Shown here in pieces: positions 1 to 8,169 of a DNA stretch of 37,305 nt. A model generated the notes under the pieces. The model saw only the letters and a program-made list of their open reading frames with translations, did no database searches and was not told the DNA's origin. Position 1 is the first letter of the stretch; each line of letters opens with the position of its first letter. This DNA is from a virus (lineage: Duplodnaviria > Caudoviricetes). Position numbers and translations under genes: made by a program. Location of the stretch: IMG/VR virus record IMGVR_UViG_3300035102_000519, positions 1-37,305 of that record; one strand, written 5' to 3'.

Positions 1-351
1 TTACAGATGTTGAAACAGAGAGCCCTGTTTCGGGGCGCGCCGTTCGCGCTCGGCTTTGAGGATACGGTAGATCGTCTGACGGGACAACCTGAACTTTTTG
101 ACTAAGGTATTGATGTTGTCTCCGGTGAAGGCGTCCATAATCTCCGCATTACGGGTGTGCATTCTGGTGGCCAGGTCCATAGGGATATAGAGCACCTGCC
201 CACCCCAGTTGTCGGCAATGCGCACGGCAACGTCTTGGGCAATGCCTTTGGCTACGCCGTCGGGAAGCTGTACTTTGTTGGTCAGAACGTCGGCCACGTG
301 GTCCCGCAGGTCCATGAGGAGTTCCGCTCCAACTTCGCCGGGCTTATTCAT
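1..351 (-). CDS. mor: Mor/C family transcription activator
   Basis: WGGQVLYIP motif, RNAEIMDAFTGDN and C-terminal HTH (LVKKFRLSRQTIYRIL); follows gemA. Confidence 0.93.
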   Translation of the reverse strand: MNKPGEVGAELLMDLRDHVADVLTNKVQLPDGVAKGIAQDVAVRIADNWGGQVLYIPMDLATRMHTRNAEIMDAFTGDNINTLVKKFRLSRQTIYRILKAERERRAPKQGSLFQHL

Positions 352-787
352 CGCATTCCTCCACGCGTTGCTGCCATTTCTTGAGCGCCTCGATGATGCT
401 GCTTGCCTGCCAGCGGTTGAGCCATCGGTAGGACGCGACGCCGGGCTTGTTGTCGCGCCGGGTCATGCGTTGGGTGTAGGCGTTGAGCGCGGCCTCGCTC
501 GGGTCGCGGACGGCTCCGGCCTTGTGCAGTTCCTGCCACAGGACAAATATCTTGCGGGCCTGGGCGTCGGGGAGCGACGGTTTTTGCGTGGTCTGGCCGG
601 TCAACGTGTCCAGGTGGGCGCACAGGTTTTTGAGCTGCCCGTCGTTCAGGTCGGCAGTAGATGACACCTTGTAGCGCTCCTCCAGCATTGCCTGGTAGTC
701 GTCGTCAGGCATGACCAGGATGCGCCTTTGCAGCGTCTTGCATTTGCGAATGAGCTTTGACCTCAAGGTTGCTCCCTTGGCTTTCAT
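344..787 (-). CDS. gemA: GemA / Mu gp16 family protein (DUF1018)
   Basis: DDDYQAML..SSTADL..QL, KIFVLWQEL..GAVRDPSEAALNAY, ASSIIEALKKW pattern; GAGGAG SD. Confidence 0.88.
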   Translation of the reverse strand: MKAKGATLRSKLIRKCKTLQRRILVMPDDDYQAMLEERYKVSSTADLNDGQLKNLCAHLDTLTGQTTQKPSLPDAQARKIFVLWQELHKAGAVRDPSEAALNAYTQRMTRRDNKPGVASYRWLNRWQASSIIEALKKWQQRVEECDE

Positions 788-811
788 GGCGCATCTCCTC
801 TGCTTGGTTTG

Positions 812-862
812 CTACGCGACGCCCTTGCGGGCGTTTCGTCCCTACGGACTCGTCAGGCGTAG
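812..862 (-). ncRNA. Type I hammerhead ribozyme
   Basis: Minus strand reads CUACGC-CUGACGA-GUCC(GUAG)GGAC-GAA-ACGCCC(GCAA)GGGCGU-C-GCGUAG: intact catalytic core, three fully Watson-Crick stems, GUC cleavage triplet (cut between 818 and 817); intergenic. Confidence 0.93.
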
Positions 863-865
863 TTC

Positions 866-1123
866 CTAGGGCCAGGGGTAAAAGCCCTCTATCTCGTACT
901 CTTCGTCGGCCATCTTCTCTGAGATTTTCACCTCCATGGATTCTCCCTCGGAAAGATCCTCCACGTTCCACTTTACTTCGCCCTCGTAGTGTTCGACGTC
1001 GAATACGTCGTCAATGTTGTCGTCCGCCCATTCTTGGGCGTCTTCTTTTGAGACAGAATCGGGGACCGTAAGGATTACGGTCTTCATTAACTTCTTTGTG
1101 ATATCAACTGCGTATGTTGCCAT
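866..1123 (-). CDS. Hypothetical acidic protein (85 aa)
   Basis: ORF with AAGGAG SD, very D/E-rich, AT-richer than flanking genes. Confidence 0.75.
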   Translation of the reverse strand: MATYAVDITKKLMKTVILTVPDSVSKEDAQEWADDNIDDVFDVEHYEGEVKWNVEDLSEGESMEVKISEKMADEEYEIEGFYPWP

Positions 1124-1156
1124 GTTGATTATCTCCTTTTACCTGCATCTTGCGGA

Positions 1157-1345
1157 TTAGTTGTTGTCTTCAACCAAGGGCAACAGCTCGACCAACTTTT
1201 CACGGACGGCCTGAAGTCTCACAGGATCAACCATCGGCATATTGAACGGTCCAGAAAGGTGGACATTGTTTGGATGGACAAGACCAGCAACCTCTTCAAG
1301 CAGACCGTTAAAATCGTACTTTTCGATGTCCACTTTCATTTCCAT
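1157..1345 (-). CDS. Hypothetical protein
   Basis: Small ORF co-oriented with early operon, GAGG SD; exact start uncertain. Confidence 0.65.
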   Translation of the reverse strand: MEMKVDIEKYDFNGLLEEVAGLVHPNNVHLSGPFNMPMVDPVRLQAVREKLVELLPLVEDNN

Positions 1346-1366
1346 CACCTCACTGCTAATACGTGG

Positions 1367-1708
1367 TTATTCGCCCTTGACCTTGGAAATAGCGTCTCGG
1401 ATGAAGTCATGGAGGGCTGTTATCTTTTGGTATTCCGGGGTATTTTCTACCGGAGTCCCTGCGTAATTTTCCACCATCTTAAAGAACTCCTTCTCCTCGA
1501 AAGGAGCGCACATCTCCAAGGCCGCAAGCAGTTCCTTGCGCTGCTCAATAAGAGTATCAAGCAGCTTGCCCGCGCGGACGATTTCGGCAGCCGAAGACTT
1601 CCGGCTTGCTTCGTCGTCTTCCAATTGGTCAGCAACCGATTGAGTCAATATGTTCAACGCGCATTCCCACGTCGGTGTCATGTCGATGGTGATCTCTTTT
1701 GCTTCCAT
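1367..1708 (-). CDS. Hypothetical protein (113 aa)
   Basis: Start MEAKEIT preceded by AAAGGA; helical, protein-like composition. Confidence 0.75.
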   Translation of the reverse strand: MEAKEITIDMTPTWECALNILTQSVADQLEDDEASRKSSAAEIVRAGKLLDTLIEQRKELLAALEMCAPFEEKEFFKMVENYAGTPVENTPEYQKITALHDFIRDAISKVKGE

Positions 1709-1734
1709 GATATTTCCTTTGGTCGTTGTTGCGC

Positions 1735-2109
1735 TCACCATTTAATGAGCGTGCCATCGAAAGGCAGCCCGTGTTCCTCGGCGATAAATTGCCGCAAGCC
1801 GTCGGCGTCCCGGAATCCGTCGGCCTGGGCCAACATGTCCAGCGCGTGGTCCTCTAGGGGCTTACCGTTGACGGTGACATTGATGCCCTGACCATTTGAC
1901 AGAAACCATATGGATATGGGCTCGGCGCTCTTGCACGATGGATCGGGCAGGACCAGCTTGCGGCAGCCCTGGGTGCGCATGCCGGTGTAGAGCTGCAACG
2001 GTTCGCCGGGGCGGGCGTGCCGCCGCTTGCCGTTGGCGCGGATGGTTTGCCGTTTTTTGAGGGCGGCCACATCATCCGCGAACTCCTGCTTAAAGTTGTA
2101 GGCAACCAT
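1735..2109 (-). CDS. ASCH/PUA-like domain protein
   Basis: MVAYNFK..F...V...KKRQTIR....RHARPGEPLQLYTGMRT..C and LAQADGF motifs; ATG overlaps upstream TAA. Confidence 0.7.
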   Translation of the reverse strand: MVAYNFKQEFADDVAALKKRQTIRANGKRRHARPGEPLQLYTGMRTQGCRKLVLPDPSCKSAEPISIWFLSNGQGINVTVNGKPLEDHALDMLAQADGFRDADGLRQFIAEEHGLPFDGTLIKW

Positions 2110-2351
2110 TACCGCTCCACCTCCTTCCGAATCCGCAGCATCCGGTCCGGCTCCACGCCCTCGGGCAGGGCGCAGGGGCCGAGTTCGCAGCCGAGGCAGA
2201 CCACGCCCTTGACGTTGTTCAGCTGGCGGGCCAAGGCAACGCCGGAGCTTTTGCACTTGAGCCCTGCGGGCATCCACAACGGCAGCGGCTGAGAGCCGCG
2301 CAGCTTGGGCTTGTCCTTTTCTTTGATGTACAGGTCTTTGCGAATCTCCAT
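2109..2351 (-). CDS. Hypothetical Cys-containing protein (80 aa)
   Basis: GGAGG SD, coupled to next gene; C..CLGC..C possible metal site. Confidence 0.7.
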   Translation of the reverse strand: MEIRKDLYIKEKDKPKLRGSQPLPLWMPAGLKCKSSGVALARQLNNVKGVVCLGCELGPCALPEGVEPDRMLRIRKEVER

Positions 2352-2359
2352 GAGGCCTC

Positions 2360-2560
2360 CTAGTGATCGGGCTGGCCGATCTCGGAACGGATCAGCCAGC
2401 CGGGGATTTCAAGGTCCAGCTCGTCGCCGCGCTCCACGTTGTCCGGGAACTCGACCTGGCTGCGGGGAATCCACATTTGAATGCCCGTGTCCTCAATCCT
2501 GCAAAGCACGGCCCGGCCGGTCGTGGCCTTGACCTGGACGATGTAGGTGCGATCAGCCAT
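2360..2560 (-). CDS. Hypothetical protein (66 aa, small beta-barrel-like)
   Basis: MADRTYIV start with GGAGG upstream; WIPRSQV..IPGWL motif common in small phage proteins. Confidence 0.72.
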   Translation of the reverse strand: MADRTYIVQVKATTGRAVLCRIEDTGIQMWIPRSQVEFPDNVERGDELDLEIPGWLIRSEIGQPDH

Positions 2561-2804
2561 GCTCCACCTCCGCAACCGCCGTCCTGGGGCCGGTGTGGCC
2601 GCTACAGGTGTCCTCGGTCTGCCCGGCCAGCACGGCCTCATGCCGCGCCACCAGCTGGTCCATGTGTTCGCATTGCGCCTTGGTCAGGCCGCCGTCCTCG
2701 CGGGCGTTCTTGAGCATCTTGACAAACTCGCGGACATCCTTCTGGAGGCGGAGGACTTGCGCCTCCGCCCCCTGCAACGCCTTGCAGCGTCCGCATTGGG
2801 TCAT
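2553..2804 (-). CDS. Hypothetical protein (83 aa)
   Basis: ATGA overlap with gam stop, overlaps next gene start; CxxC then coiled-coil. Confidence 0.68.
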   Translation of the reverse strand: MTQCGRCKALQGAEAQVLRLQKDVREFVKMLKNAREDGGLTKAQCEHMDQLVARHEAVLAGQTEDTCSGHTGPRTAVAEVEHG

Positions 2805-3310
2805 GCCTCACCTCCCAACTCTTCCTCGGCGGGTTCGATGAAGAACTCGTCGCTGACAACGCGGCGCATGCCCACGGTCTTGAGCTTGGAATCCTGCCAC
2901 CCGCGCATGGCCTCCTTGTTGACCGACTCTTTAACTGCGATGGCTTCTCTGATATCCAGCTCTTGGAGCCGCTCCAGGACCTGGGCCAGGGTCATCTTAG
3001 GAATGGGTTTGATCTTGGTAGCCTTGCGCCACCCGAAAACGCCATATGGCGTTTTTTGAGACTTGCGGGCCTTGAACAACTGATCCTTGTTCAGGGTCGC
3101 ATAGATGCACAGGGAGTTGCCGAGTTCTTTCTGGCGGGCCTTGAGCGGCTCCATTTCCGCCGCCGCGTTGGCCTTGATGAGGTCGATATTCTCCGCCGCG
3201 TCGATTTCGACGGCATTGATCTGTCGTCCCAACTGAGCCAGCTCCAGCATGGCCGCCTCGGCCTGCTTGGCGTCTGCAATGACTTTGGCTTTGGGTTTGC
3301 TTCTAGCCAT
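2801..3310 (-). CDS. gam: Host-nuclease inhibitor Gam family protein
   Basis: Coiled-coil N-half, KSQKTPYGVFGWRK, KESVNKEAM, GMRRVVSDEFFIEP signature. Confidence 0.88.
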   Translation of the reverse strand: MARSKPKAKVIADAKQAEAAMLELAQLGRQINAVEIDAAENIDLIKANAAAEMEPLKARQKELGNSLCIYATLNKDQLFKARKSQKTPYGVFGWRKATKIKPIPKMTLAQVLERLQELDIREAIAVKESVNKEAMRGWQDSKLKTVGMRRVVSDEFFIEPAEEELGGEA

Positions 3311-6446: not shown

Positions 6447-7889
6447 CTACCAGCTCCGCCCGTTGGGGGTGTTGGTCTGGCCCGCTTCCAGGTCGGCCTG
6501 GGCCGTCTCGCGCATCCAGGCCGGGCTGACCTCCTCCTCGAAGTCCACCGGGATATTGTGCTGGATCAGCGCCGCGTTGATGGCCTGGCAGTAGTTTCCG
6601 ACCGAACCAATCACATGCTGCGAGGTGTGCGCCGAAACGTCGTGGCTGTTCAAAATCGCCTCCACCTGGACCAGGAACTCGTTCCACCCCACCAGGGCGG
6701 TCATGTAGGCGTTTTCCAGCGCCTTGACGGCCTCGGCCTCGCGGGCCAGGCGCAGTTCTTGGTCCGCGTCCTTGGGCAGGCTCTTGAGCCGGAAAAGCTC
6801 CTCCTCGGTCTTCTCCAATCGGGTGGCCTTGTCTTCCAGCAGCTTGCCGCGCGCATCCAGGTCGGCGGTCAGGCCGTCCTTTTCTCTTTTCGCGGCTTCG
6901 CGTTCGGCCTGGTGCTTGGCCGCCATGTCTTCCAGGATCGCCAGGACATCCTCCTTGGACTCGGATTCGATGGCCTGCTTGACGATGGCCTGTTCCGCCT
7001 CGGGCAGCGCCTTGAGGGCGCGGTAATCCTTGGCCCGGAAGCCTATGCGCTCGGCGGATTCGTAGAGGTCGGAACCGAGGGTGCGGAGGTTGCCGATGAG
7101 GTCACGAACATAGCGCCCGGTCTTCCCGAGGAAGTGGTCGCAAAATTCATCAAAAGTGGAAATGTATTTCCGGTTTCCGTCGTTGTCATTATACGGCAAA
7201 CCTTTGTATTTCTTGTCTTCGCGCACCTGTCGGGCAAACTGCGCAGCGGAAATATTTCCGATTTTTGCGAAGAACGTGGACGCCTCAATCCGCCCGATTG
7301 CCTTGAAGACATCGGCACTATCCAGTACGGCCTGGTCGATGGCAGCGGCGGTATGCTGCGTCTCATTCAGGGCCGCGCCCCGCTCCGGCGTGATCTCGGG
7401 AACCAGGGGGGCGTCGGAGACTTCCTGAGGCTCGCCCTGGACGGCGATCAACTCGCACAGCCCCTCGGGCCGGGTGCACTTGCCGGTCTCGCCGGGAATC
7501 AGCTTGCCGGGCGTGGGGTTGCTCTTGGATTTGTGGTGCTTGCAAGTGGAGCAGGAACAGGTGGTCTCATCGGTATGCCCGCCCCATGCAGCGTCCTCAC
7601 GGTCGATGCAGTCACGAACGGCCAGGGAGAGCTTGACCGCCATGTCCTCGCCGTCAAGAAGCAAGGCTTGGCAGACGTCGGAGGCCAGTTCGTCCGGGCT
7701 CACGTCGCCGCGTTCGTCGGCCCAAAGACAGGCATAGGTGTCCAGGGCGGCCTGGGTCTTGGCGGTGCGGCTGACCGGGTTCTCAAAATTCGCCGCGATA
7801 AAGTCTTGGACGGTGGCGGGCAGAGTGCGCGTGGTGGTGTCGGTGGCCGGCAGAGTGCGCGTGGTGGTGTCGGTGGCCGGGCTAGTCAT
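6447..7889 (-). CDS. Early protein preceding transposase (DUF3102-like, coiled-coil C-terminus) with long N-terminal extension
   Basis: Position typical of B3-like phages; TFDEFCDHFLG motif, GFRAKDYRALKALPE; Cys cluster and tandem repeat in N-part. Confidence 0.75.
   Translation of the reverse strand: MTSPATDTTTRTLPATDTTTRTLPATVQDFIAANFENPVSRTAKTQAALDTYACLWADERGDVSPDELASDVCQALLLDGEDMAVKLSLAVRDCIDREDAAWGGHTDETTCSCSTCKHHKSKSNPTPGKLIPGETGKCTRPEGLCELIAVQGEPQEVSDAPLVPEITPERGAALNETQHTAAAIDQAVLDSADVFKAIGRIEASTFFAKIGNISAAQFARQVREDKKYKGLPYNDNDGNRKYISTFDEFCDHFLGKTGRYVRDLIGNLRTLGSDLYESAERIGFRAKDYRALKALPEAEQAIVKQAIESESKEDVLAILEDMAAKHQAEREAAKREKDGLTADLDARGKLLEDKATRLEKTEEELFRLKSLPKDADQELRLAREAEAVKALENAYMTALVGWNEFLVQVEAILNSHDVSAHTSQHVIGSVGNYCQAINAALIQHNIPVDFEEEVSPAWMRETAQADLEAGQTNTPNGRSW
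7811..7880. repeat. 30-bp in-frame tandem repeat (2 exact copies + partial)
   Basis: CAGAGTGCGCGTGGTGGTGTCGGTGGCCGG at 7821-7850 and 7851-7880; encodes PATDTTTRTL x2. Confidence 0.95.
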
Positions 7890-8169
7890 TGTTGGTCACC
7901 TCCCGCAGCGTGCGCTGCAAGTCGCGCAGCATCAGGCATTCCTCGCGCCCCTGCACGATGGCGGACATCCCCAGGGTGTGCCCTCCCGCTTTGGCGGGCA
8001 GACTTGTCGAACTCCATTTTTCGCGGGGGAGCAGGTCGCGCAGCTTTGAGCAGACGTCGGGCCCGGCAGCGGCCACGGCGTAGGCCATGGGCACGCCGTG
8101 CATGTCCGAAACGATGGGGACGAGAGAGAGGAGCTGTCCCATCTGGTAGCATTGGTACTCTTTGTCCAT
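7882..8169 (-). CDS. Hypothetical protein (95 aa)
   Basis: AAGGAGG SD, overlaps start of next gene. Confidence 0.72.
   Translation of the reverse strand: MDKEYQCYQMGQLLSLVPIVSDMHGVPMAYAVAAAGPDVCSKLRDLLPREKWSSTSLPAKAGGHTLGMSAIVQGREECLMLRDLQRTLREVTNND

What the first reader, a model, noticed from the sequence alone, without database searches (positions are those of the whole stretch)
788..865. Hammerhead ribozyme in the early mRNA, 30 nt upstream of gemA-mor
Seen: all conserved core nucleotides (CUGACGA, GAAA, GUC) and perfect stems I (6 bp), II (4 bp) and III (6 bp, GCAA tetraloop) lie on the coding strand, filling the intergenic gap. Cleavage between 818 and 817 leaves a short leader with the GAGGAG SD of gemA. 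Established: hammerhead cleavage leaves a 5'-OH and a 2',3'-cyclic phosphate, and hammerheads have been reported in some phage intergenic regions, mostly without known function. Inference: self-cleavage releases a separate gemA-mor message whose 5'-OH end may alter its stability, tuning the early-to-late switch driven by Mor. It could also have arrived with the adjacent AT-rich gene cassette.
Basis: partly seen in the sequence, partly recalled or inferred. Interest (0 to 1): 0.85.

Follow-up and report, generated by a model that had tools for sequence, protein, structure and literature searches.

The report
Type I hammerhead before phage gemA-mor
A textbook self-cutting RNA motif (type I hammerhead) fills the gap before the last two early genes (gemA, mor) of a Mu-like prophage and is conserved in four related phages; it likely cuts the early message to free a gemA-mor piece with a fixed 5' end, which is a known kind of RNA in its usual phage layout.

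Summary
Observation confirmed. A type I hammerhead lies at 862-812 (minus strand): Rfam RF00163 35.4 bits against a cut-off of 34, and 0 descriptor hits in 200 shuffles. The predicted cut at 818/817 leaves a 30-nt leader for gemA. Four relatives carry it in the same slot, with 0-2 of 52 bases changed against 17-32% at silent gemA sites. One of them has an unrelated upstream gene, so it goes with gemA, not with the AT-rich cassette. Of 79 GemA loci, 5 have this type I motif and 2 a type II directly upstream, 16 a type II within 1.5 kb, 4 one farther off, 52 none; the sister clade lacks it. Cut-to-start distances of 25-45 nt are usual for phage type I hammerheads (30 of 42), and splitting of prophage messages was proposed in 2011 (PMC3088659). 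Best reading (0.55): constitutive processing that insulates gemA-mor. The effect on Mor is untested; two genomes of the probable host family encode RNase J, so the 5'-OH end could destabilise. The scan noted type II versions in other Mu-like phages before.

The parts
812..862 (-). Type I hammerhead ribozyme (stems I 6 bp, II 4 bp, III 5 bp plus A15.1-U16.1)
   Evidence: Rfam RF00163 35.4 bits, cut-off 34; descriptor 1 hit, 0 in 200 shuffles
850..856 (-). Core C3-A9 (CUGACGA)
   Evidence: sequence; invariant in 5 of 5 aligned loci
842..845 (-). Loop II GUAG; ends in G where most natural hammerheads have A
   Evidence: sequence; PMC2632901 passages
834..837 (-). Core G12-A15.1 (GAAA)
   Evidence: sequence
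817..818 (-). Predicted cleavage site, after C17 (818) of the GUC triplet
   Evidence: inferred from the hammerhead consensus, not measured
811..811 (-). C at position 1.7, possible partner of the loop II G (weakly supported)
   Evidence: invariant in 5 of 5; pairs with loop G but not as a general rule
788..817 (-). 30-nt leader left on the gemA-mor fragment; Shine-Dalgarno GAGGAG at 800-795
   Evidence: 28-30 nt in 5 of 5 loci, 7-nt spacer from GGAG to the start codon
344..787 (-). gemA
   Evidence: PF06252 E 2.8e-29
1..351 (-). mor/C-family activator, the only one in the record
   Evidence: PF08765 E 2.1e-26; PHROG 532 late transcriptional activator
866..1123 (-). Upstream accessory ORF (85 aa, no family); its stop codon is 3 nt before stem I
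   Evidence: homologue without ribozyme in L063

Best explanation
A canonical type I hammerhead sits between the variable accessory genes and gemA-mor of a Mu-like prophage, and it likely cuts the long early transcript constitutively, so that gemA-mor would be translated from its own fragment with a fixed 30-nt 5'-OH leader whatever gene lies upstream. Shown: motif, position, strand, conservation, and linkage to gemA rather than to the upstream gene. Inferred: one early transcript runs through the gap; the RNA cleaves in vivo; the upstream piece keeps stems II and III as 3' hairpins while the downstream piece starts with little structure; ribosomes loading on the strong Shine-Dalgarno 18-23 nt from the new end set its lifetime. 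It would work as a natural insulator (like the engineered RiboJ) that uncouples the level of GemA and Mor from the decay and folding of the swappable upstream genes. It would not be a ligand- or ribosome-controlled switch, and it is not essential in this phage group.
For: Perfect core and stems. Purifying selection: 0, 1, 2 and 1 differences in 52 nt in L164, L009, L010, L011, against 11/65, 12/63, 16/57 and 15/47 at four-fold degenerate gemA sites; binomial P 2e-4 to 5e-8. Leader length held at 30, 30, 30, 28, 30 nt although 6-10 of 21-23 leader bases differ in three relatives. Upstream gene sets differ among the five loci, and similarity to the window resumes at or just before the ribozyme. 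The five form one GemA clade (SH-aLRT 95, quick tree). A different topology (type II) fills the same slot in L299 and L300. Descriptor hits around gemA are 32 sense to 1 antisense. No sigma-70-like promoter in 1-3000, and gaps of 33 nt or less upstream, fit one transcript. The hammerhead is the lowest-energy fold at the moment stem I is completed. Tandem prophage hammerheads were shown to cut native polycistronic RNAs in vitro, and one set in E. coli (PMC3088659 section 6).
Against: No cleavage or RNA-end data for this phage. 52 of 79 GemA loci, including the 5 sister loci, show no hammerhead in the DNA held (the upstream DNA held ranges from none to 7 kb). In longer contexts competing folds beat the hammerhead by 1.3-5.6 kcal/mol across the five loci, about 1.3 of it due to my constraint. 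The canonical U1.7-A contact is missing, which may slow cleavage at low Mg2+. No compensatory pair changes among the five loci (0 of 15 pairs); they are too similar to show any. RiboJ leaves a hairpin on the downstream RNA (PMC6206723 passages), this ribozyme little, so the analogy is partial. Recent recombination of the ribozyme could mimic selection.
Confidence: 0.55

Rival explanations
1. Attenuator: the cut exposes a weakly structured 5'-OH end to RNase J, shortening the life of gemA-mor mRNA and so lowering or delaying Mor and late transcription (glmS-like outcome, without a ligand).
For: RNase J (TIGR00649) is above the cut-off in 2 of 2 Pseudodesulfovibrio genomes that hold related prophages. 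In Bacillus subtilis RNase J1 degrades the 5'-OH product of the glmS ribozyme (PMC3328962 and PMC11780869 passages). The predicted 3' product folds at only -5.7 kcal/mol over 33 nt, against a 5'-terminal hairpin (-15.0 over 60 nt) in the type II case L299. Mor is the sole Mor-family gene.
Against: The host of the window is inferred, not known; only 2 genomes were checked. The same layout (cut 25-45 nt before a start codon) precedes many unrelated phage genes (30 of 42), which suggests no Mor-specific brake. A ribosome on the nearby Shine-Dalgarno could shield the end (inference).
Confidence: 0.18
2. The cut mainly serves the upstream piece: type I topology leaves stems II and III and a 2',3'-cyclic phosphate as a protected 3' end for the accessory-gene mRNA, and gemA-mor is incidental.
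For: The 5' product keeps two or more hairpins at its end in all 5 folds. In other Mu-like loci the hammerheads lie among accessory genes, 150-2200 nt upstream of gemA, often in pairs.
Against: The ribozyme stays with gemA while the upstream gene changes; leader length is conserved.
Confidence: 0.12
3. Regulated switch: translation of the upstream ORF, or a competing helix, turns cleavage on or off and so times Mor.
For: The upstream stop lies 0-11 nt from stem I in all 5 loci. In the window a competing helix with the end of the upstream ORF wins at longer transcript lengths and disappears when that ORF is left out of the fold.
Against: The bases that form this helix differ in the four relatives, and the stop-to-stem distance varies. 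The cost of opening the Shine-Dalgarno to AUG stretch is higher after the cut in 4 of 5 loci, so cutting does not unmask it.
Confidence: 0.08
4. Passenger: the ribozyme came in with the AT-rich cassette or another mobile piece and has no selected role.
For: Absent from the sister clade, so gained once. Very similar hammerheads occur in unrelated contexts (L161, L163, L165).
Against: Ribozyme without the cassette gene in L011, cassette gene without ribozyme in L063. Much more conserved than silent sites. The gap is 62.8% G+C, like the phage core, not like the 48.8% cassette.
Confidence: 0.07

Closest known systems
Type I hammerhead ribozymes, Rfam RF00163 (Hammerhead_1)
   Same: Core consensus, three stems, open stem I, GUC triplet; above the gathering score.
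   Different: Loop II ends in G and position 1.7 is C, whereas 22 of 27 natural hammerheads in PMC2632901 have a loop 2 ending in A that pairs with a U (passages). No pseudoknot or stem I bulge conserved among the five loci.
Prophage hammerheads between genes of polycistronic transcripts (Perreault et al. 2011, PMC3088659)
   Same: Sense-strand ribozyme between small, variable prophage genes; proposed to process long transcripts into operon- or gene-length mRNAs (section 6).
   Different: Single, not tandem (1 hit in the window); fixed before the conserved gemA-mor pair; no Desulfovibrio entry or this core string in the readable supplements (file 11 was cut when stored).
Type II hammerheads (RF02276) in the gam-gemA region of other Mu-like phages
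   Same: Same region and strand; directly before gemA in L299 and L300.
   Different: Other permutation: type II leaves the stem I hairpin on the downstream 5' end and cuts about 47-78 nt before the next start; type I leaves the hairpins upstream and a 28-30 nt leader.
glmS ribozyme (works-like comparison only)
   Same: Self-cleavage just upstream of a coding region, giving a 5'-OH mRNA.
   Different: Different fold; ligand-dependent; no ligand site here. RNase J1 decay shown in B. subtilis, untested in this host.
RiboJ synthetic insulator (works-like comparison only; PMC6206723)
   Same: Self-cleavage gives an identical 5' end whatever lies upstream.
   Different: Engineered, carries a 23-nt hairpin after the ribozyme, measured in E. 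coli (2-fold more mRNA); here natural, internal to an operon and without a strong 5' hairpin.

Membership tests
Hammerhead ribozyme, type I (RF00163) | Core C3 U4 G5 A6 N7 G8 A9, G12 A13 A14 A15, U16 H17 (criteria quoted from PMC3088659) | tested here: met
Hammerhead ribozyme, type I (RF00163) | Paired bases next to the core in stems I, II, III; no bulges in short stems | tested here: met
   100% of 75 cells paired in 5 loci
Hammerhead ribozyme, type I (RF00163) | Stem I open, stems II and III closed by loops | tested here: met
Hammerhead ribozyme, type I (RF00163) | Covariance-model score above the curated cut-off | tested here: met
   35.4 against 34 bits; relatives 35.4, 31.6, 31.2, so two of three fall just below
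Hammerhead ribozyme, type I (RF00163) | [quoted passage not shown] | tested here: inconclusive
   Canonical A with U1.7 absent. Loop A went with U1.7 in 35 of 35 keys and loop G with C or G-C in 13 of 13, but in a second set 9 of 21 new loop-G keys had U1.7 and only 3 had C
Hammerhead ribozyme, type I (RF00163) | Site-specific self-cleavage | not testable with these tools
   needs an in vitro or in vivo assay
Hammerhead ribozyme, type II (RF02276) | Stem II open; loop I pseudoknot with the 3' tail | tested here: not met
   stem II is closed by a tetraloop
Mu-like (transposable) prophage | DDE transposase, MuB-like ATPase, Gam, GemA, Mor, Mu-type head and tail genes, Mom | tested here: met
   provirus, 100% complete by CheckV as reported
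Ligand-controlled ribozyme (glmS-like regulation) | Ligand-binding element or conserved alternative structure | tested here: not met
   no extra conserved structure; competing helix not shared by relatives

The most novel reading that the evidence does not exclude
Mu-like phages have recruited hammerheads of two different topologies into the same slot before gemA-mor, and the topology sets the outcome: type II leaves a protective 5' hairpin, while this type I leaves a bare 5'-OH end that RNase J of a Desulfovibrio-type host degrades, acting as a built-in timer on the phage's only Mor-family activator. It would use a G-C version of the loop II/stem I contact. This would be a defined biological role for a bacterial phage hammerhead, which reviews call an open question.
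Probability: 0.15. Interest if true: 0.65.

Novelty: new member of a known kind. Interest (0 to 1): 0.3.

Why it matters
Reviews state that the role of bacterial and phage self-cleaving ribozymes other than glmS is largely unknown (PMC6765202 and PMC6155905 passages). This locus adds no new class, but it is a clean test case: one ribozyme, conserved under selection, directly before the phage's single Mor-family activator, with natural controls (sister phages without it, other phages with a type II in the same slot). Its host is probably a sulfate reducer with limited genetics, so type II cases in tractable hosts are easier to test.

Tried and rejected
Whole-window Rfam scan at gathering threshold found nothing: a filter miss, since the local scan passed the cut-off. 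Second ribozyme in the window: none by descriptor or Rfam. Arrival with the AT-rich cassette: rejected. Cleavage unmasking the Shine-Dalgarno: not supported in 4 of 5 loci. Separate sigma-70 promoter before gemA: none found in 1-3000 (simple consensus scan only). General G(loop II)-C1.7 covariation: strong in the first set, failed as a general rule in the second; it marks one lineage of related hammerheads, so the Fisher P values are not independent evidence. Other Rfam ribozymes replacing it in the sister clade: none in L012, L062, L063 or L287, L290 (only 1.5 kb upstream held). Loose core pattern in 401 Desulfovibrionaceae genomes: 77 genomes matched, with similar counts for the reversed control; by eye only G388 (the L011 prophage) had this motif. 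GenBank phage collection: no match to 740-900. Sequencing runs: no RNA holder was listed. Paper searches for hammerhead + Mu-like + prophage and ribozyme + GemA + phage Mu gave 0 papers; hammerhead + transposable phage gave 1 unrelated listing. PMC4787814 passages gave nothing on 5'-OH and RNase E. The careful GemA tree did not finish; only the quick tree is used.

Full report
Observation. The minus strand at 862-812 reads as a type I hammerhead with a full core, stems of 6, 4 and 5+1 pairs and a GUC triplet; the cut is predicted between 818 and 817. Rfam RF00163 scores it 35.4 bits against a gathering score of 34, E 8e-7; the whole-window fast scan missed it. My descriptor gave 1 hit in the window and none in 200 dinucleotide shuffles. 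It fills the largest gap (78 nt) of the 16 in the early gene run and leaves a 30-nt leader with GAGGAG. The isolated 52-nt unit folds as a hammerhead in 4 of 5 loci, not in L010. In a 96-nt context the window's lowest-energy fold is a competing one, but the hammerhead is the best fold at the moment stem I is completed, and stays so when the upstream coding sequence is left out.

Setting. The record is a Mu-like provirus of 37,305 bases, rated complete. Transposase, MuB-like ATPase, Gam, accessory genes, gemA and mor run on the minus strand; lysis, head, tail and Mom-like genes run on the plus strand. Mor at 1-351 is the only PF08765 match and its best PHROG is a late transcriptional activator, so it probably turns on the late genes (inference). 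The named GemA relatives are from Pseudodesulfovibrio, so the host is probably in the Desulfovibrionaceae (inference).

Relatives. The same ribozyme lies directly before gemA in L164, L009, L010 and L011; L008 is identical to the window over 7,787 bases and was not counted. It differs from the window at 0, 1, 2 and 1 of 52 positions, while four-fold degenerate gemA sites differ at 11/65, 12/63, 16/57 and 15/47 (binomial P 2e-4 to 5e-8). All changes lie in loops or keep a G-U pair; none is compensatory. The leader is 28-30 nt in all five. Upstream genes vary: L011 has an unrelated gene before the ribozyme, and L063 has a homologue of the window's upstream gene but no ribozyme. The ribozyme therefore travels with gemA, not with the AT-rich cassette.

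Wider survey. I scored 79 distinct GemA loci, after dropping 7 rows with identical GemA segments and the repeats of the same contigs or prophages (L001, L002, L005-L008, L286, L288, L289). Five have a type I and 2 a type II hammerhead directly upstream, 16 a type II within 1.5 kb upstream, 4 one farther upstream or downstream, and 52 none. The upstream DNA held ranges from none to 7 kb, so absences are soft; loci were fetched for 30 of the 40 family genomes with a GemA match. Hits were 32 sense and 1 antisense. Rfam confirmed type II in 8 of the 20 family loci scanned. In the quick tree the five type I loci form one clade (SH-aLRT 95), sister to five loci without a hammerhead; the direct type II pair is a separate clade (the careful tree did not finish). 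So one gain, kept under selection, in a group where the ribozyme is optional.

How ordinary. A core pattern retrieved 97 stretches in viral contigs, and only the known loci had gemA nearby. A stem III pattern retrieved 121 loci, 4 with gemA. Of 42 distinct type I-like hammerheads there, 33 have a Shine-Dalgarno and start codon within 70 nt of the cut and 30 within 25-45 nt. Perreault et al. 2011 (PMC3088659; I read section 6, passages and a term search of 11 supplements, one cut) report all three types in bacteria, often between variable prophage genes, propose processing into operon- or gene-length mRNAs, and show cleavage of three native arrangements in vitro and one in E. coli. Two reviews (passages only) call the role unresolved. 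Three searches found no paper linking hammerheads to Mu-like phages or GemA, and a Mu-like Pseudomonas phage genomics paper has 0 occurrences of 'ribozyme' (PMC4378225 passages). The library lacks most subscription papers, and the gene lists of the twister and pistol discovery papers were not seen. This scan had already noted type II hammerheads in the same region of other Mu-like phages (six notes) and nothing like this sequence or in this genome.

Mechanism. Shown: motif, strand, position, conservation, linkage. Inferred: a single early transcript (no sigma-70-like promoter in 1-3000; short gaps), cleavage in vivo, and the fate of the pieces. Type I topology leaves stems II and III on the upstream piece and a weakly folded 5'-OH leader on gemA-mor. 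I favour constitutive processing that gives gemA-mor a fixed 5' end independent of the swappable upstream genes (0.55), as the engineered RiboJ does (PMC6206723 abstract and passages). The direction of any stability change is open. That RNase E disfavours 5'-OH ends is recalled, not from a call. The two Pseudodesulfovibrio genomes checked encode RNase J and RNase Y above the cut-offs, and RNase E/G (above the cut-off in one, in two pieces in the other), and RNase J1 degrades the 5'-OH glmS product in B. subtilis (passages). An attenuating role is thus the main rival (0.18). Cutting does not make the ribosome-binding site easier to open in 4 of 5 loci, and the one competing helix is not shared by the relatives, which argues against a switch.

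Tertiary contact. Most natural hammerheads pair the 3' A of loop 2 with a U seven bases after the cut (PMC2632901 and PMC11875169 passages). Here the loop ends in G and that base is C. Among 105 pattern matches (4 not folded by the script, 48 distinct keys), loop A went with U in 35 of 35 and loop G never did in 13 (C in 8, G in 5). In a second set (121 matches, 58 with a 4-bp stem II, 50 folded, 28 keys), 9 of the 21 new loop-G keys had U, 7 G, 3 C and 2 A. A G-C contact is possible in this lineage but is not a rule. PMC2632901 reports that an A-to-G change at this loop position had a smaller effect than other changes, so activity is still likely.

Verdict. Real, selected and probably active; a new member of a known family in its usual layout. 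What is a little new is the type I form in a slot that other Mu-like phages fill with type II, and the RNase J question. Interest 0.3.

Noticed in passing
L074:1636-1690 (+), L128:2495-2545 (+), L070, L076, L088 and related loci: Type I hammerheads of the same loop-II-G lineage (L076: loop A) lie inside or beside phage tRNA arrays, in L074 and L128 a few bases after a tRNA 3' end; 11 of 16 such loci hold tRNA genes. Possibly tRNA precursor processing.
   Followed up: partly
L161, L163, L165, L069, L103, L143, L146 (just 3' of the hammerhead): Close sequence relatives of the window's ribozyme are followed by a shared element with a CCCA...UGUGA...UGGG hairpin-like core and a GC-rich tail; no Rfam family matched it at E 0.05 in the six of these loci scanned. 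Could be an undescribed structured RNA.
   Followed up: partly
L012:6905-7000, L062, L063, L291, L292, L293 directly upstream of gemA: Where the type I ribozyme is absent, the slot often holds a short Cys-rich coding stretch (CxxC...CxC-like), apparently in frame with gemA in L012 and L063.
   Followed up: no
L300:1420-1484 (+): Type II hammerhead directly before gemA with a core change at G8 to A, still 42.6 bits; may be slow or inactive.
   Followed up: no
L307, L311, L312, 940-1250 nt downstream of the gemA start: In one GemA clade the type II hammerhead lies downstream of gemA rather than upstream.
   Followed up: no
L008:7801-7850 and L009:7801-7850 (just past the mor stop, beyond window position 1): Three to four short direct repeats of about 10-bp period, shared by both phages before they diverge; candidate transposase or Mor binding sites at the phage end.
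   Followed up: no
window 866-1740: Three accessory ORFs at 48.8% G+C against 63.2% for the genome, without Pfam matches; only the last is shared by L009 and L164, two by L010.
   Followed up: partly
window 7790-7890 (-), start of the 480-aa ORF 6447-7889: A short tandem peptide repeat near the N-terminus.
   Followed up: no
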